This document shows, in pieces, positions 1 to 4,207 of a DNA stretch of 64,000 bases. The position numbers were made by a program. The stretch comes from Podarcis filfolensis (taxonomy: Eukaryota): the NCBI GenBank assembly GCA_964270895.1, contig OZ185442.1. The stretch is one strand, 5' to 3'. Position 1 is the first letter of the stretch. Each line of letters begins with the position of its first letter.

Positions 1-3000
1 TTAGTTTGTTTTCGGTTGTTAGTTTGTTAATGTGGCTAATATTGTAGATTAAAAGTGCTGTAGTGCTTTGTGAATCTTATAACATGACCTGTGTGGTGGC
101 TGTGCTGTTTAGCTTATTTTTTTTAGTTGTTTCGTTAATAGTGTTTTCTAGAAGGTGCTTGTTTTACTGATTATTTGTTAATTATTCTATACAGTGGTAC
201 CTCAGGTTAAGTACTTAATTCGTTCCGGAGGTCCATACTTAACCTGAAACTGTTCTTAACCTGAAGCACCACTTTAGCTAATGGGGCCTCCCGCTGCCAC
301 CACACCATTTCTGTTCTCATCCTGAAGCAAAGTTCTTAACCTGAAGCACTATTTCTGGGTTAGCGGAGTCTGTAACCTGATGCGTATGTAACCCGAGGTA
401 CCACTGTAATTGTGGTGTTCTATCATGTTATTGTCATTGATTGTTTGTGAGCCACGTTGTGACTCATGTGAGTGAAAAGCAGCATAGAAAATGAAATGAA
501 CTCACTCCTGTAAGGTGGAGCCTACCTCTGACAGGGAGATTATGGGCCTTCCTTTCTTCCCAGGGGTCACAGTAGTACTGGCTCATGGATCTCACAGTCG
601 CTTGGCCCACCACAGGCTTAAATCCAAACTCTCTGTGGTCTATCACCTTCAGTTCGATAGGAAGCGCATAATCTTCATCCACAGGCAGGTACTAAGAGAG
701 ATCAGGAGGGGCTGCATGAGGTTCTTCCAGGAGAGGAACGCCTGGGGATCCATTTCAGGGATGATGAGACAAAGACAGCTGTGCACATACTGTCATGCTG
801 TCCAAGGGAGGAGATGACACCTCTAAGGTTTCAGTATAGCTAGTAACTAAAAAGATGCCTATTTAAATGAGCATGCCTGGCCTAAAGCTGCTTGCTTAGA
901 TAAGCATTTGTGGCTCTTGACGACACACGCTACCAGTTTGGCTAGAGGCAGGGCTGGCCCAAGACATTTTGTCACCTGAGGCAAACCAGAGAATGGCATC
1001 CCCTCTCCTCCCACGAGGGAAGAAAGGGTGAGAGAAGATCTACATCTGGAACAAGGGTGGGAGGAGACCAGCAGTGCCTCCTGTTCACTAAGATCGCCAT
1101 ATGGGACAGCTGAATATTCCTGCATTGCAGGGGGCTTGGCTAGATGATCCCATGGGTCCCTTCCAACTCTACAATTCTATAAGATTCTAAGAAGCTACTG
1201 TGGAGGTGGCATGGGAGGCCTGCTGAGGAGGCAGCAGATCCAGCCCCCAAGGAGCACGCTGCAAGAGAAAGTATAGCTAGTAAAGGAGACATGAGGCAAA
1301 AGGTCACAGTGAAAATGTGGATTGCAAAATCTGATTAGCAAACTCTAAAATGGTGGAGATGATGGACTTCCGGGTTGGCGCCTCCAGGCAATGGCGGAGT
1401 TCCTCCGATCGGGAGGAATTTGCTCCGTGGAAATCAGGGTCTGACCGCCACGGCGAAGGCGGAGACCCACTGAAATCACAGGCGGGAGAAGCTTGTGAAC
1501 CTGGGATTCGGCTGGCACCTTTTGCGCCTCCCCTACTCGTGGGGAAACCCTGATTTGGGGATCCGGAGCGAAGTGGGGTGAGCGGCGCGGTGCTTCAAAT
1601 TGACTGCTTCTTTCATGGAGTGAAGCTGCATCGCTGTTGCCGGAGAGCGCTGACTTTTTCCTGTGGACAATTTGACTTTAAACAACTACCCATGAGTAGA
1701 ACGGAAAATTGGATCTTTAAATTTATTAATTTGGCATCGAAACGGGAAGGTTTTAAACAGGAAGTCCGCCTTCCTCTTTTGTAAATAGATTGAAGCAAAG
1801 ACGTTGCAAGTTAAAGCCTTGGAAAGTCTTTTGTAAAGGATTAAATCTCCATCGGTTAAAACTATTAAACCCCCCTTGGAAGCAGGAGAAGAGGGGGGAA
1901 ATTTTGGACCTAGCGAGCCTGCAGGAGAGAGTGAAAAATCAAATTACCACTGCTCTGAACCTGGAAACGGGCTGCCAGTAAGATTGACGTCTTGGGAGAG
2001 TTCATTGACTGTGAACAGAAAGCATGTTGACAGATGGCTAAATAAGAGAAATACATTGTTTCCATGGTCCCCTTCTGCGTTTAAAAAGGAGGAAAAGTGA
2101 AAATTGAAACTAACTTTATAATTTAAATTGTGTTTGAAAGGATTGATACAAGTGGAGACTGGTTCCCTCTAGAGGGAGCTTTTGAAACTGTTACAAGAGT
2201 GGAGCTGGGGTTTTTCCAGCTGCAAGATAAGAACTGTGAGAATCAGAGATTGACCTTGGATTTTAAGAATGTTGACAGAAGGAGCCTTAGTGACTGTATT
2301 ATGTAAGATAAGCTATTCGTTGGAACAGCTCCACAAGAAGACGGATGTTATGACTACTAAACTTGAGAACTTGGGACAAAAAGTTATTAATTTGGGACAA
2401 AAAGTGATCATCAATACAGAAATTGTTCAGGACTTGACACAGGAACCTACTTTGACAGGACAAACTGGGGAGAAAACAAAGGAGAAAGTTGTTGTTGTCG
2501 AACCTAAAGTAATACAAGTGGGAGCCCCAGCCTTACAGAGGCAAATCGAGGACTATAAGTGGAGGCCTTTTATGAATGAATATAGAAAAAGTCAGAATTT
2601 GAAGATTGGAGCCCTGCTTGGACTGGAGAAGGAAGGTTGGATAGACTCCTTCATGCAGGGATTTACTGACCTTTGGGTCCTGAATCTGGGTCAGGAGGTG
2701 ATTGGAGTTGTGGGGGCCTTTGGATCTGGAGGAGCTTTGAAACATGATTTGAGAGATTGTATGGACCTTGGTTCTAGCTGTGGAGAGTTGGCTGGTCTGT
2801 CGAGAGGGAATGGGGGCATGGTTGGGTCGCCCCCCCCCGAGACCTGCTCTTCAGCATCTTCAGCATCAAAGAATATGAAGAAAAACTGCAGAAGGGACTT
2901 GGAGAAGATTTAAGAGCCTCGGACAGAAGATCTCCAGGTTGATGAACTATATGGAATGGACGGAAATGACTGGCAGAATCCGAGACCAGGGAGAAGAGAT

Positions 3001-4207
3001 GGTGGAGAAAGATTGGGAAAGTTTAAAGTTTATATATAGAAATATTGTAAAATTAATGAGTGTTAGAAAATTGTTGGAATGAAACTTTATGGCTTTAGTA
3101 GAAATGTTATAAGGGGTTAAGTATAAATAAGCACTTTAGTATTAATGGAAATTAAGGTTAAAAATATGTTAAGATATTCATAATGATAAAAATAGAGAAA
3201 GATGGAAAGGAATTGCTGAAACAAGTAACAGAAGTGGAATACAAAAAGGGAGGTGTGAGGGAATAAGGGAATGAAATAAGGGAATGAAAGATAGAGTAAT
3301 GAAATGGTATGGTATATGTTTTTAAATTGTTGTTGTTTTGTTTTGTTTTGTTTAGTATGTTAAGGTTGTGTTTTGTATTGTTTATATATTGTATTGTTTC
3401 TTCTTTTTTTCTTTTTTCTTCTTTGTTCTATTTTGCCTTTTTCTCTCGCCTTTTTTCTTCTTTTTTCTTTTCTTGTAAGTCTTAAAAGTAATAAAGATTA
3501 TTTTAAAAAAATGGTGGAGATGATGATGATTACTGGAGGAGAGGTTAGTTTCATCTCAAGTCTTAAGATTTGCCCTTGGAAACTGTCTCTGCCATATGCT
3601 AGGGGCCCACTCACCACTTTCATGAGATAGATATTGATTGGAAAATTGGAGTGCTCTTGCAGATTCCTGATGACTGGCGTCTGAAGCGTTTCTCCTCCAC
3701 ACTCTATGATGAGACTCGGATTGCTGATGGCCAGCAGATTGTAGGTCTTCATGTCCCGCAGGCCCCAAGCCAGGATCTGTGGGAACATCGTGATAAATAT
3801 TTATAAAAGCAACAGCTCAGCAGAAAGTGGGGCCACAGGGCCTGAGGCTCTGCTTTCTGGATTGGTTGCAGGGTTGGACCAATCCATCCATTTTACTTCC
3901 CCTGAACTTTTGAAGAGTTAAATGATAATTGTGGAGTTTACACCCCCCCACGTGCAATCTTTTTAATTCATGATGTTTTATAATGCTTTATTCTCTCCCC
4001 CCCCCCCATGCATGCTGTAAGCCAGTGTTCCCCAACCTTGGGCCTCCAGCTGTTTTTGGACTACAATTCCCATCATCCTTGACCACTGGTCTTGCTAGCG
4101 AGGGATGATGGGAGTTGTAGTCCAAAAACAGCTGGAGGCCCACTGCTGTTGGGGAACACTGCTGTAAGACACCCAGAGTGGCTGGGGAAACCCAGCCAGA
4201 TGGGCAG

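What the first reader, a model, noticed from the sequence alone, without database searches (positions are those of the whole stretch)
1365..3507. TSD-flanked 2.1-kb half-L1-like element: 5'-complete, ORF1-like ORF intact, ORF2 almost entirely absent
Seen in sequence: an 18-bp TSD brackets a unit with about 900 bp of 5'UTR, a stop-free 214-aa coiled-coil ORF, only the last ~45 codons of L1 ORF2 (frameshifted), a 3'UTR and AATAAA. The first ~600 bp align with the L1 at 48876 and the ORF2 tail aligns with the L1 at 8456-8907. Established: L1 copies usually lose their 5' end, and ORF1-only HAL1 elements are known from mammals. Inference: both termini, TSD and poly(A) signal are intact, so this short RNA may itself have been retrotransposed. 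That would make it a non-autonomous squamate L1 derivative keeping its own diverged ORF1p and using the L1 RT in trans.
Basis: partly seen in the sequence, partly recalled or inferred. Interest (0 to 1): 0.72.

Follow-up and report, generated by a model that had tools for sequence, protein, structure and literature searches.

The report
Internally deleted lizard-type L1 copy
A 2.1-kb retrotransposon copy keeps both ends of an L1 element and most of its first gene but lacks nearly all of its second, which is ordinary unless other copies share the same internal joint.

Summary
An exact 18-bp target-site duplication (1347-1364, 3508-3525) brackets a 2143-bp L1-lineage unit:
- a 904-bp 5'UTR that starts at the same base as another L1 in the window;
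- a 214-codon ORF;
- the last 49 codons of ORF2;
- a 3'UTR, AATAAA and a short A run.

The ORF descends from this lineage's ORF1. Its 3' third aligns with the ORF1 remnant of the L1 at 48874, and its N-terminus holds eight clean heptads modelled as a parallel trimer.

The ORF is not an intact ORF1:
- Against that relative it carries a net 43-nt loss, so its last 15-29 codons are out of the ancestral frame.
- Pfam, PDB sequence search, ESM Atlas and AlphaFold2 recognise no RRM or C-terminal domain.

The duplication and intact ends do not show that the short form was retrotransposed. A full-length insertion deleted later looks the same.

The window holds one copy, and no eukaryotic genome collection was available, so the HAL1-like family claim is untested.

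Best reading: a solitary defective L1 copy (0.6). A HAL1-like squamate lineage remains possible (about 0.27).

The parts
1347..1364 (.). Left copy of the 18-bp target-site duplication
   Evidence: Exact 18/18 match with 3508-3525, and only two occurrences in the window. The bottom strand at its 5' edge reads ACCATTTT/AGAG, a T-rich nick site. The L1 endonuclease preference for TTTT/AA is recalled, not from a call.
1365..2268 (+). 5'UTR (904 bp). The first 483 bp are CpG-rich.
   Evidence: 75.0% identity to 48896-49368. The 5' terminus coincides with that of the other copy at 48873/4. CpG observed/expected is 0.91 in 1365-1847, against 0.25 for the window. A further block, 1922-2060 with 49460-49605, has z 7.6.
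2024..2041 (+). Five-codon mini-ORF (MLTDG, then stop) inside a 34-nt copy of the ORF start region
   Evidence: 2004-2037 against 2249-2282: 74% identity, z 5.2. Read from the sequence.
2269..2913 (+). 214-codon ORF derived from the lineage's ORF1
   Evidence: ORF listing. 0 of 1000 shuffles give 214 codons or more. Its 3' third is homologous to the ORF1 remnant of the L1 at 48874 (2707-2845 with 49643-49780, z 11.0). Pfam finds 0 families at E<=10.
2287..2436 (+). Coiled-coil segment (residues 7-56, eight heptads)
   Evidence: Positions a = L,I,L,M,L,L,N,L and d = L,L,T,L,V,V,V. 13 of 15 are LIVM, reached by 0 of 1000 shuffles. A three-copy model gives in-register parallel contacts over residues 1-57.
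2368..2409 (+). Tandem duplication of one heptad (NLGQKVI twice, 2 x 21 nt)
   Evidence: Coordinates and letters. 18 of 21 nt are identical by eye.
2826..2868 (+). Zone where the ORF leaves the ancestral ORF1 frame. It contains a C9 run (2830-2838) and a 9-nt tandem repeat (2848-2867).
   Evidence: MAFFT against the L1 at 48874 gives a net 43-nt gap in the element. A local alignment instead places a 1-nt gap just before the C run. C run, tandem repeat.
2865..2918 (+). Conserved ORF1 C-terminal segment, encoded in a frame other than the 214-codon ORF. That frame stops at 2940-2942.
   Evidence: IKEYEEKLQKGLGEDLRA against LREHEEDLQKEVVEELRA at 49842-49895: 10 of 18 aa. At nucleotide level 2870-2917 with 49847-49894 has z 11.7.
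2918..2932 (+). Deletion junction: 15 nt that cannot be assigned to either side
   Evidence: ORF1-side homology ends at 2917. ORF2-side homology begins at 2933.
2933..3082 (+). Last 49 codons of ORF2 plus the stop
   Evidence: tblastx to 8859-8737(-) gives 49% aa identity, and to 54768-54935 29%. blastn gives 79.4%. There is a 1-nt gap near 3018 against both relatives. In the frame both relatives use, the element reads a TAG.
3083..3507 (+). 3'UTR with a T-rich polypyrimidine tract (3310-3480) and AATAAA at 3490-3495
   Evidence: Homologous to the 3'UTR of the truncated L1 at 8456-8722(-), z 9.8. Not homologous to the 3'UTR at 54915-55125, z 0.3. The tract is 76% pyrimidine. Repeats.
3505..3511 (+). 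A7 run. The tail is 3-7 nt, since its last four A overlap the TSD.
   Evidence: Sequence.
3508..3525 (.). Right copy of the target-site duplication
48874..50009 (+). Comparator, not part of the element: 5'UTR and ORF1 remnant of an older L1. It lacks the equivalent of element 2061-2706.
   Evidence: Downstream pieces at 51075-51560 (E 1.7e-8) and 54190-54516 (E 1.6e-4 to 3.2e-4) match LINE-1 ORF2p in the PDB.
8456..8907 (-). Comparator, not part of the element: a 5'-truncated L1 3' end with its own 17-bp TSD (8439-8455 and 8908-8924)

Best explanation
This is one defective copy of a squamate-type L1.

Shown:
- An L1 RNA that began at the family's normal 5' end and ended at its normal poly(A) site was copied into a T-rich nick.
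- The site lies 89 nt inside an intron of a dysferlin/myoferlin-like gene, in antisense orientation.
- The integration left an 18-bp target-site duplication.

Inferred:
- About 4 kb is missing in one block, by comparison with a roughly 6-kb L1.
- The block runs from just after the conserved end of ORF1 to 49 codons before the ORF2 stop.
- I take the loss to be a one-off event. It happened either in the chromosome after a full-length insertion, or while or before the cDNA was made (an already deleted or aberrant RNA, or a template jump).
- I cannot separate these two and weight them about equally.

The remaining ORF:
- It is the lineage's ORF1, with a good N-terminal coiled coil.
- Its 3' end is out of frame and shortened.
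- The copy has no reverse transcriptase, and I expect it to be inert.
- At most it yields a truncated coiled-coil protein, if its CpG-rich 5'UTR still drives transcription.
For: Integration hallmarks:
- Exact 18-bp TSD.
- Bottom-strand nick site TTTT/AG.
- AATAAA and a short A run.
- The 5' terminus is the same base as in the L1 at 48874.

L1 identity:
- 5'UTR 75.0% identical to that L1. Its downstream pieces match LINE-1 ORF2p endonuclease (E 1.7e-8) and ORF2p residues 1049-1132 (E 1.6e-4 to 3.2e-4) in the PDB.
- ORF2 tail and 3'UTR homologous to the truncated L1 at 8456-8907.

One block missing:
- ORF1-side homology runs to 2917 and ORF2-side homology starts at 2933.

Decay rather than a maintained gene:
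- Net 43-nt loss in the ORF1 3' part.
- Conserved C-terminal segment in another frame.
- A 1-nt loss against both relatives, plus a TAG in the frame both relatives use, within the 150-nt ORF2 tail.
- No RRM or CTD recognised: Pfam 0 families at E<=10, no ORF1p among PDB sequences at E<=10, Atlas recognition 1955, below the 2300 that 91 of 100 known-family proteins reach.

Only one copy in 64 kb:
- No second match to the ORF below E 1.
- No second match to 1848-2933 by blastn at E<=1e-5.

The deletion also cuts into ORF1:
- The relative's ORF1 continues 37 codons past the last shared residues.
- This fits a random break better than a neat ORF1-preserving architecture.
Against: - A perfect TSD argues that the insertion is young. 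By my arithmetic, 0 differences in 18 pairs gives a 95% upper bound of about 8% divergence. A 4-kb chromosomal deletion inside one young element is itself rare.
- There are two lesions in the 150-nt ORF2 tail and one in the roughly 670-nt ORF1 region. This is the direction expected if the lineage had been replicating without ORF2 for some time. The Poisson split gives p about 0.09 by my arithmetic, from 3 lesions, all defined against relatives only 75-79% identical.
- In mammals, ORF1-only L1 derivatives arose repeatedly and reached thousands of copies (passages in PMC5753468, PMC5322556, PMC2241872). A family is therefore a realistic alternative.
- The frame break sits at or next to a C9 homopolymer, so it could be a base-calling error.
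- One copy in 64 kb says almost nothing about genome-wide copy number.
Confidence: 0.6

Rival explanations
1. HAL1-like lineage. An ORF2-less L1 derivative is transcribed from its own 5'UTR and copied in trans by the ORF2 protein of autonomous L1s. This would be one of several copies that share the joint.
For: - The architecture matches the definition of HAL1: L1 5' part plus ORF1, no ORF2, poly(A), TSD (passages in PMC5322556 and PMC5753468).
- The 5' end is complete, with a CpG-rich 5'UTR (o/e 0.91).
- The ORF is open for 214 codons with an intact coiled coil.
- The ORF2 tail looks more decayed than ORF1, as expected if ORF2 was lost well before this insertion.
- The TSD is perfect.
Against: - No second copy in the window.
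- The ORF1 3' end is frame-shifted and shortened, and no RNA-binding domain is recognisable.
- The break removes the last 37 or so codons of ORF1 as seen in the relative.
- The TSD argument does not discriminate between the readings.
- The lesion contrast rests on three events.
Confidence: 0.27
2. Spliced L1 RNA (SpIRE-like), a sub-case of the one-off reading. Cryptic splice sites near the ORF1 end and near the ORF2 end removed about 4 kb from the RNA, and the spliced RNA was retrotransposed.
For: - Retrotransposed spliced L1 RNAs exist: 131 of 6,609 annotated full-length human L1PA1-6 copies (PMC5860796, abstract and section 7).
- In both relatives, the bases just 5' of the first ORF2-side aligned codon are CAG (columns 16-18), so an AG sits where an acceptor would be.
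Against: - The sequence upstream of that AG is purine-rich in both relatives, with no polypyrimidine tract.
- The relative has no GT directly at the ORF1-side boundary. The nearest is a weak GA|GTAC a few bases on.
- The described human SpIREs splice within the 5'UTR or from 5'UTR to ORF1, not from ORF1 to the ORF2 end.
- The parent sequence is unknown, and 15 nt at the joint are unassigned.
Confidence: 0.07
3. Template-switch chimera, a sub-case of the one-off reading. Reverse transcription started on the 3' end of one L1 RNA, then jumped to another L1 RNA near the end of ORF1 and ran to its 5' end.
For: - The 3' part is close to the L1 at 8456-8907 (79.4% nt; 3'UTR z 9.8). It is far from the 3' end at 54765-55125 (29% aa; 3'UTR z 0.3).
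- The 5' part is 75.0% identical to the L1 whose 5' end is at 48874.
- 15 unassigned nt lie at the joint.
Against: - The pieces at 48874-51563 and 54190-55117 may not belong to one element. No RT-like frame lies between them, and no TSD of 9 nt or more was found. The apparent discordance may therefore be empty.
- The 5' part of the L1 at 8456-8907 is truncated away, so it cannot be compared.
Confidence: 0.08
4. Assembly artefact. A full-length L1 was collapsed during assembly, or the C9 run was miscalled.
For: - Young multi-copy repeats are prone to collapse.
- The frame break is at or beside a 9-nt homopolymer.
Against: - The window has no N.
- The two sides of the joint share no repeat that could mislead an assembler.
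- A homopolymer error would account for 1 nt, not for the 42 further missing nt.
Confidence: 0.04

Closest known systems
HAL1 (half-L1) elements of mammals
   Same: L1 5'UTR plus ORF1, no ORF2, poly(A) signal and tail, and a TSD. They necessarily depend on an L1 reverse transcriptase (definition from passages in PMC5322556, PMC5753468, PMC2241872).
   Different: - HAL1 is defined as families of thousands of copies: about 2,100 in human and about 7,500 in rat, per those passages. Only one copy is seen here.
- The ORF1 3' end is broken here.
- 49 codons of ORF2 are retained.
- The host is a squamate-type genome.
- The primary HAL1 paper (Bao and Jurka 2010) was not held, so its criteria are second-hand.
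Ordinary internally deleted L1 copies (post-insertion deletion or rearrangement during integration)
   Same: Both termini and the TSD are present, one internal block is missing, and coding capacity is decayed.
   Different: Nothing that I could test sets it apart. That is the point of the best explanation.
SpIREs (spliced integrated retrotransposed elements) of human L1
   Same: TSD-flanked and 5'-complete L1 copies that lack an internal block because the RNA template lacked it. They are dead ends (PMC5860796, abstract and section 7).
   Different: Known SpIREs lose parts of the 5'UTR or of the 5'UTR into ORF1. Here the loss runs from the ORF1 end to the ORF2 end, and splice signals could not be shown.
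L1 ORF1p (coiled coil, RRM, C-terminal domain; homotrimer)
   Same: - Positioned after the 5'UTR.
- N-terminal heptad coiled coil, modelled as a parallel in-register trimer.
- Vertebrate ORF1ps all have a coiled coil and trimerise through it (abstract starts of PMC9410894 and PMC5940361 in the listing).
   Different: - No RRM or CTD recognisable by Pfam, PDB sequence search, Atlas or AlphaFold2.
- 214 aa, short for the family (typical lengths are recalled).
- The C-terminal segment is out of frame.

Membership tests
L1 (LINE-1) lineage copy | Homology of its parts to elements that encode an L1-type ORF2 | tested here: met
   The 5'UTR is 75.0% identical to the copy at 48874. That copy's downstream pieces match LINE-1 ORF2p in the PDB. 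The tail is 79.4% identical to the L1 3' end at 8723-8858 and 29% aa identical to the ORF2 end at 54768-54935.
L1 (LINE-1) lineage copy | Target-primed integration marks: TSD, A-rich 3' end after a poly(A) signal, T-rich nick site | tested here: met
   18/18 TSD. AATAAA at 3490-3495 and an A7 run. Bottom strand TTTT/AG. The endonuclease consensus is recalled.
L1 (LINE-1) lineage copy | Own ORF2 with endonuclease and reverse transcriptase (autonomy) | tested here: not met
   Only 49 terminal codons of ORF2 remain. There is no other long frame in 1365-3507.
L1 ORF1p | N-terminal coiled coil that trimerises | tested here: met
   Eight heptads, with 13 of 15 a/d positions LIVM, reached by 0 of 1000 shuffles. 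The three-copy model scored 0.80 against a best control of 0.00 (full caveats in the report). This is a model, not a measurement, and other copy numbers were not tried.
L1 ORF1p | RRM domain (Pfam Transposase_22; name recalled) | tested here: not met
   Pfam gives 0 families at E<=10 for the 214-aa ORF. No ORF1p chain appears among PDB sequences at E<=10. The Atlas gives no usable hit for the whole ORF and a best score of 0.78 for residues 90-190.
L1 ORF1p | C-terminal domain | tested here: inconclusive
   Nucleotide homology to the ORF1 3' part of the relative is clear (z 11.0 and 11.7). However, the element has a net 43-nt loss and a frame change there. The relative's own piece is recognised neither by Pfam nor by PDB search, and its model has pLDDT 51 with 0 Foldseek matches at E<=0.001.
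HAL1-like non-autonomous family | L1 5' part and ORF1 without ORF2, with poly(A) and TSD | tested here: met
HAL1-like non-autonomous family | Many copies sharing the same deletion joint at independent sites | not testable with these tools
   One copy in the window.
HAL1-like non-autonomous family | ORF1 kept intact by selection across copies | not testable with these tools
   This needs other copies. In this copy the 3' end of ORF1 is out of frame.
SpIRE-like spliced copy | Joint coincides with GT...AG of the parent | tested here: inconclusive
   An AG is present at the right boundary in both relatives. There is no GT directly at the left boundary in the one relative. The relatives are only 75-79% identical, and 15 nt are unassigned.

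The most novel reading that the evidence does not exclude
The copy belongs to, or founded, a squamate lineage of ORF2-less L1 derivatives. This would be an origin of 'half-L1' parasites outside mammals. The lineage would keep only a coiled-coil stump of ORF1p and still be mobilised in trans, which would mean the RNA-binding half of ORF1p is dispensable for such parasitism.
Probability: 0.2. Interest if true: 0.5.

Novelty: new member of a known kind. Interest (0 to 1): 0.25.

Why it matters
As it stands, this is one more defective L1 copy in an intron.

If the joint proved to be shared by many independent insertions, it would show that ORF1-only L1 parasites arise outside mammals too. That would happen in genomes where many low-copy L1 lineages coexist, and it would offer a natural test of how much of ORF1p such a parasite needs.

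My full-text search for HAL1 together with retrotransposon and lizard returned 5 papers. None of the passages I read in 4 of them describes such elements in lizards. Repbase and Dfam were not available.

Tried and rejected
Structure and family searches that gave nothing usable:
- AlphaFold2 on the 214-aa ORF without an alignment: mean pLDDT 33.5, unusable and not searched further.
- AlphaFold2 on the relative's ORF1 piece: pLDDT 51.1. Foldseek against the PDB gave 0 matches at E<=0.001 and no ORF1p among those listed. Uninformative.
- ESM Atlas: no usable hit for the whole ORF. The best score was 0.78 for residues 90-190 (gag-labelled clusters), which is in the range shuffled proteins reach. 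Not evidence.
- Pfam at E<=10 on nine fragments of the element and comparators: only two sub-threshold chance hits, DUF346 at 0.11 and NOGCT at 0.024.

Analyses that were uninformative:
- dN/dS on the 44-49 codon ORF2 tail. Synonymous sites are saturated (pS 0.59-0.80), and an indel makes the ungapped codon comparison unsound.
- A 245-bp monomer structure of the 5'UTR. Only a 34-nt motif repeats (z 5.2).
- Aligning the relative to the ORF start: z 0.3.
- A TSD for the L1 at 48874-55117: none of 9 nt or more.
- The 'two-lineage mosaic' argument. It depends on 48874-51563 and 54190-55117 being one element, which I could not show.
- Bacterial-type promoter and terminator scan: 2 and 1 sites against 3.9 and 2.1 expected. 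Irrelevant to a vertebrate element.
- Rfam: nothing inside the element.

Not used or not available:
- The prokaryotic genome collection and the phage, plasmid and E. coli collections were not used, because they cannot hold this element.
- Bao and Jurka 2010 was not held.
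Full report
**What is there**

The window has no N. The string AAAATGGTGGAGATGATG occurs exactly twice, at 1347-1364 and 3508-3525, and the match does not extend on either side. Between the two copies lie 2143 bp (1365-3507), organised as follows.
- 5'UTR: 1365-2268, 904 bp.
- ORF: 2269-2913, 214 codons. The stop-to-stop frame starts only five codons upstream.
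- Joint: 15 nt that I cannot assign to either side, 2918-2932.
- ORF2 tail: the last 49 codons of an L1 ORF2 with its stop, 2933-3082.
- 3'UTR: 3083-3507, 425 bp, with a T-rich tract (76% pyrimidine over 3310-3480).
- 3' end: AATAAA at 3490-3495 and an A7 run whose last four bases overlap the duplication.

An ORF of this length arose in 0 of 1000 shuffles of the element.

**Why it is an L1**

blastn of the element against the window gave two matches besides itself.
- 1387-1847 with 48896-49368: 75.0% over 480 columns.
- 2934-3068 with 8858-8723 on the minus strand: 79.4% over 136 columns.

The 5' end is complete. A local alignment that included 40 nt of upstream flank starts at 1364 and 48873, and the flanks do not align. 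Both copies therefore begin at the same base, give or take one. That is what one expects of two full-length 5' ends. It rests on two copies only.

The copy at 48874 is L1-like further down.
- A frame at 51075-51560 matches Pfam Exo_endo_phos (4.6e-8). Its best PDB matches are LINE-1 endonuclease and ORF2p (1.7e-8 and weaker).
- The frame at 54190-54516 matches ORF2p residues 1049-1132 of 1275 (E 1.6e-4 to 3.2e-4).
- The element's tail aligns with the very end of that ORF2 (29% aa) and better with the ORF2 end at 8859-8737 (49% aa).
- The element's 3'UTR is homologous to the 3'UTR of the copy at 8456-8722 (z 9.8 against 200 shuffles). It is not homologous to the one at 54915-55125 (z 0.3).

The copy at 8456-8907 is a classical 5'-truncated L1 with its own 17-bp duplication.

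The element's insertion site reads ACCATTTT/AGAG on the bottom strand. This is close to the T-rich site that L1 endonuclease prefers; the consensus is recalled.

**What the ORF is**

Its 3' third is homologous at nucleotide level to the ORF1 remnant that follows the 5'UTR in the copy at 48874.
- 2707-2845 with 49643-49780, z 11.0.
- 2870-2917 with 49847-49894, z 11.7. A control stretch of that copy's ORF2 region gave z 0.5.

The ORF is therefore this lineage's ORF1 by descent and by position.

That relative lacks the equivalent of 2061-2706. Its next upstream block matches 1922-2060 (z 7.6). The first two thirds of the ORF thus have no comparator in the window, and tblastn with the ORF found only itself below E 1.

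Residues 7-56 form eight uninterrupted heptads.
- 13 of 15 a/d positions are L/I/V/M, reached by 0 of 1000 shuffles.
- One heptad is tandemly duplicated (2368-2409).

A three-copy model of residues 1-110 gave these results.
- Score 0.80, with the best of 3 controls at 0.00.
- In the tool's calibration, the mark was reached by 21 of 30 proteins solved as pairs of one chain and by 0 of 23 solved as single chains.
- On eukaryotes it was reached by 17 of 29 (animals 7 of 16), but by only 1 of the 7 with no older solved relative. It was reached by 0 of 30 single chains.
- The runs agree in at least 39% of contacts, and the partner's pLDDT is at least 57.
- The contacts are in register and parallel over residues 1-57.

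Caveats on this model:
- The job held three copies whereas the calibration held two, so the counts hold only roughly.
- I chose three copies and tried no other number.
- Trimeric ORF1p coiled coils have been solved, so a pass may reflect likeness.
- The model supports self-association. It does not show it.

Vertebrate ORF1ps share such a coiled coil (abstract starts of PMC9410894 and PMC5940361 in the listing).

**Why the ORF is not an intact ORF1**

- MAFFT against the relative shows a net 43-nt gap in the element between about 2826 and 2868. A local alignment splits this into a 1-nt gap just before the C9 run (2830-2838) plus the rest. Either way the frame changes.
- Upstream of the break, the ORF's own frame matches the relative's ORF1 frame: DLGSSCGELAGLSRGN against DLRSNYGDLVALLRGN (E 0.084 in this small search).
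- Downstream of the break, the best-conserved stretch (IKEYEEKLQKGLGEDLRA against LREHEEDLQKEVVEELRA, 10 of 18) lies in a different frame, which stops at 2940-2942.
- The last 15-29 codons of the 214-codon ORF are therefore out of the ancestral frame, and about 14 codons are missing.
- The relative's ORF1 goes on for 37 codons after the shared ...LRA. The big deletion therefore also clipped ORF1.
- Nothing recognises an RNA-binding half. Pfam gave 0 families at E<=10. PDB sequence search gave one chance-level match and no ORF1p. Atlas recognition was 1955 with no usable hit, and 0.78 at best for residues 90-190. AlphaFold2 gave pLDDT 33.5.
- The relative's ORF1 piece is equally unrecognised. 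Part of this may be the lineage's divergence rather than damage.
- The C9 run could be miscalled, but that would explain only one of the 43 nt.

**The ORF2 tail**

A three-way alignment shows a 1-nt gap in the element near 3018 against both relatives. In the frame that both relatives use after that point, the element reads a TAG. The element's own continuing frame stays open to 3079.

I tried dN/dS on the tail, but the sites are saturated and the indel spoils the codon alignment.

**What the evidence does and does not say about mechanism**

The TSD, the nick site, the shared 5' terminus and the poly(A) signal show an L1-type integration of an RNA with normal ends. They do not say how long that RNA was. 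A full-length insertion that later lost its middle gives exactly this picture.

The joint cannot be read for splice sites or microhomology.
- The only relatives are 75-79% identical, and 15 nt are unassigned.
- An AG precedes the right boundary in both relatives. However, the upstream context is purine-rich.
- There is no GT directly at the left boundary in the one relative available.

Two observations lean towards loss before insertion.
- The TSD is perfect.
- The ORF2 tail carries two lesions in 150 nt against one in about 670 nt of ORF1.

Both are weak.
- An 18-bp TSD with no difference still allows about 8% divergence (my arithmetic).
- The lesion split has p of about 0.09, from three events defined against distant relatives.

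Two observations lean against a maintained ORF1-only parasite.
- The ORF1 3' end is damaged.
- The break cuts into ORF1.

Copy number, the decisive fact, could not be examined.
- The window holds one copy.
- The genome collection on hand is prokaryotic.
- Repbase and Dfam were not available.

My odds are as follows.
- Solitary defective copy: 0.6, split about evenly between chromosomal deletion and loss at or before integration.
- HAL1-like lineage: about 0.27.
- Assembly artefact: 0.04.
- The remainder is left open.

**Comparison with what is known**

In mammals, HAL1 elements are L1 derivatives that encode only ORF1, have a poly(A) tail and TSDs, depend on L1 enzymes, arose several times and reach thousands of copies. 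This comes from passages in PMC5753468, PMC5322556 and PMC2241872. The primary paper, Bao and Jurka 2010, was not held.

Human SpIREs show that L1 RNAs lacking an internal block are retrotransposed at a low rate and are dead ends: 131 of 6,609 (PMC5860796, abstract and section 7). That paper's supplementary tables were not seen.

In the green anole, L1 families are small and hold both full-length and truncated copies, for example 144 and 75 copies (passages of PMC3787681). That paper has no occurrence of 'internal deletion' or 'ORF1'.

Searches for HAL1 together with lizard terms produced no paper describing such elements in lizards. One search was read as a listing. One search returned 5 papers, and I read passages in 4 of them. 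The fifth is on Daphnia.

**Surroundings**

The minus-strand frame at 3501-3788 matches dysferlin (9.5e-15), myoferlin (6e-14) and otoferlin (3.3e-6) in the PDB. Pfam found nothing.
- The exon reads 3776 down to 3615, between CAG and GTGAGT.
- The element therefore sits 89 nt into the following intron, antisense to the gene.
- I searched this one exon alone and built no joined exon model.

The mix of repeats (L1 copies, and other LINE ORF2 tails at 48554-48874 and 49960-50961) fits a squamate genome. That attribution rests on recall, not on a call.

Noticed in passing
window 3615-3776 (-): A 162-nt exon of a dysferlin/myoferlin-like gene (PDB matches 9.5e-15 and 6e-14), flanked by CAG and a consensus GTGAGT donor. 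The L1 copy lies 89 nt into the downstream intron, antisense. Its purine-rich complement and poly(A)-signal complement therefore sit close to a splice donor.
   Followed up: partly
window 48874-55117 (+): A composite old L1. It has a 5'UTR and an ORF1 remnant that lacks about 645 nt present in the studied element. Its endonuclease start is at 51075-51563, with no RT-like frame from 51563 to 54190. The ORF2 C-terminus lies at 54190-54914, followed by an (AAATA)n tail. No TSD of 9 nt or more was found, so it may be two separate fragments.
   Followed up: partly
window 49960-50961 (+): A 333-codon open frame between the ORF1 remnant and the ORF2 start of that L1. It looks like the C-terminal part of a different LINE's ORF2, with a Cys/His-rich end (family by recall only). 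Pfam finds nothing at E<=10.
   Followed up: partly
window 48554-48874 (+): An open frame running straight into the 5' end of the L1. It resembles the ORF2 tail of an RTE/BovB-type LINE (recall only; Pfam 0 families), which suggests the L1 inserted into an older LINE.
   Followed up: no
window 8439-8924 (-): A textbook 5'-truncated L1 3' end (8456-8907) with a 17-bp TSD (8439-8455 and 8908-8924). Its ORF2 stops five codons earlier than in the other two copies because of a 1-nt difference near the end.
   Followed up: yes
window 17142-17214 and 29662-29720 (+): Two Rfam tRNA matches (47.1 and 34.8 bits). They may be tRNA genes or tRNA-derived SINE heads.
   Followed up: no
window 2004-2041 and 2249-2282 (+): The 34 nt around the ORF start are repeated 245 nt upstream (74% identity, z 5.2). 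This creates a five-codon mini-ORF (MLTDG, then stop) that mimics the start of the main ORF (MLTEG...).
   Followed up: partly
window 2368-2409 (+): An exact one-heptad (21-nt) tandem duplication inside the coiled coil (NLGQKVI twice), a small-scale length change of the coiled coil.
   Followed up: partly
window 3310-3480 (+): A 170-nt T-rich polypyrimidine tract (76% pyrimidine) built of degenerate TTGTT and TTTCTTC units in the 3'UTR. It is much longer than the corresponding stretch of the related 3'UTR at 8456-8722.
   Followed up: no
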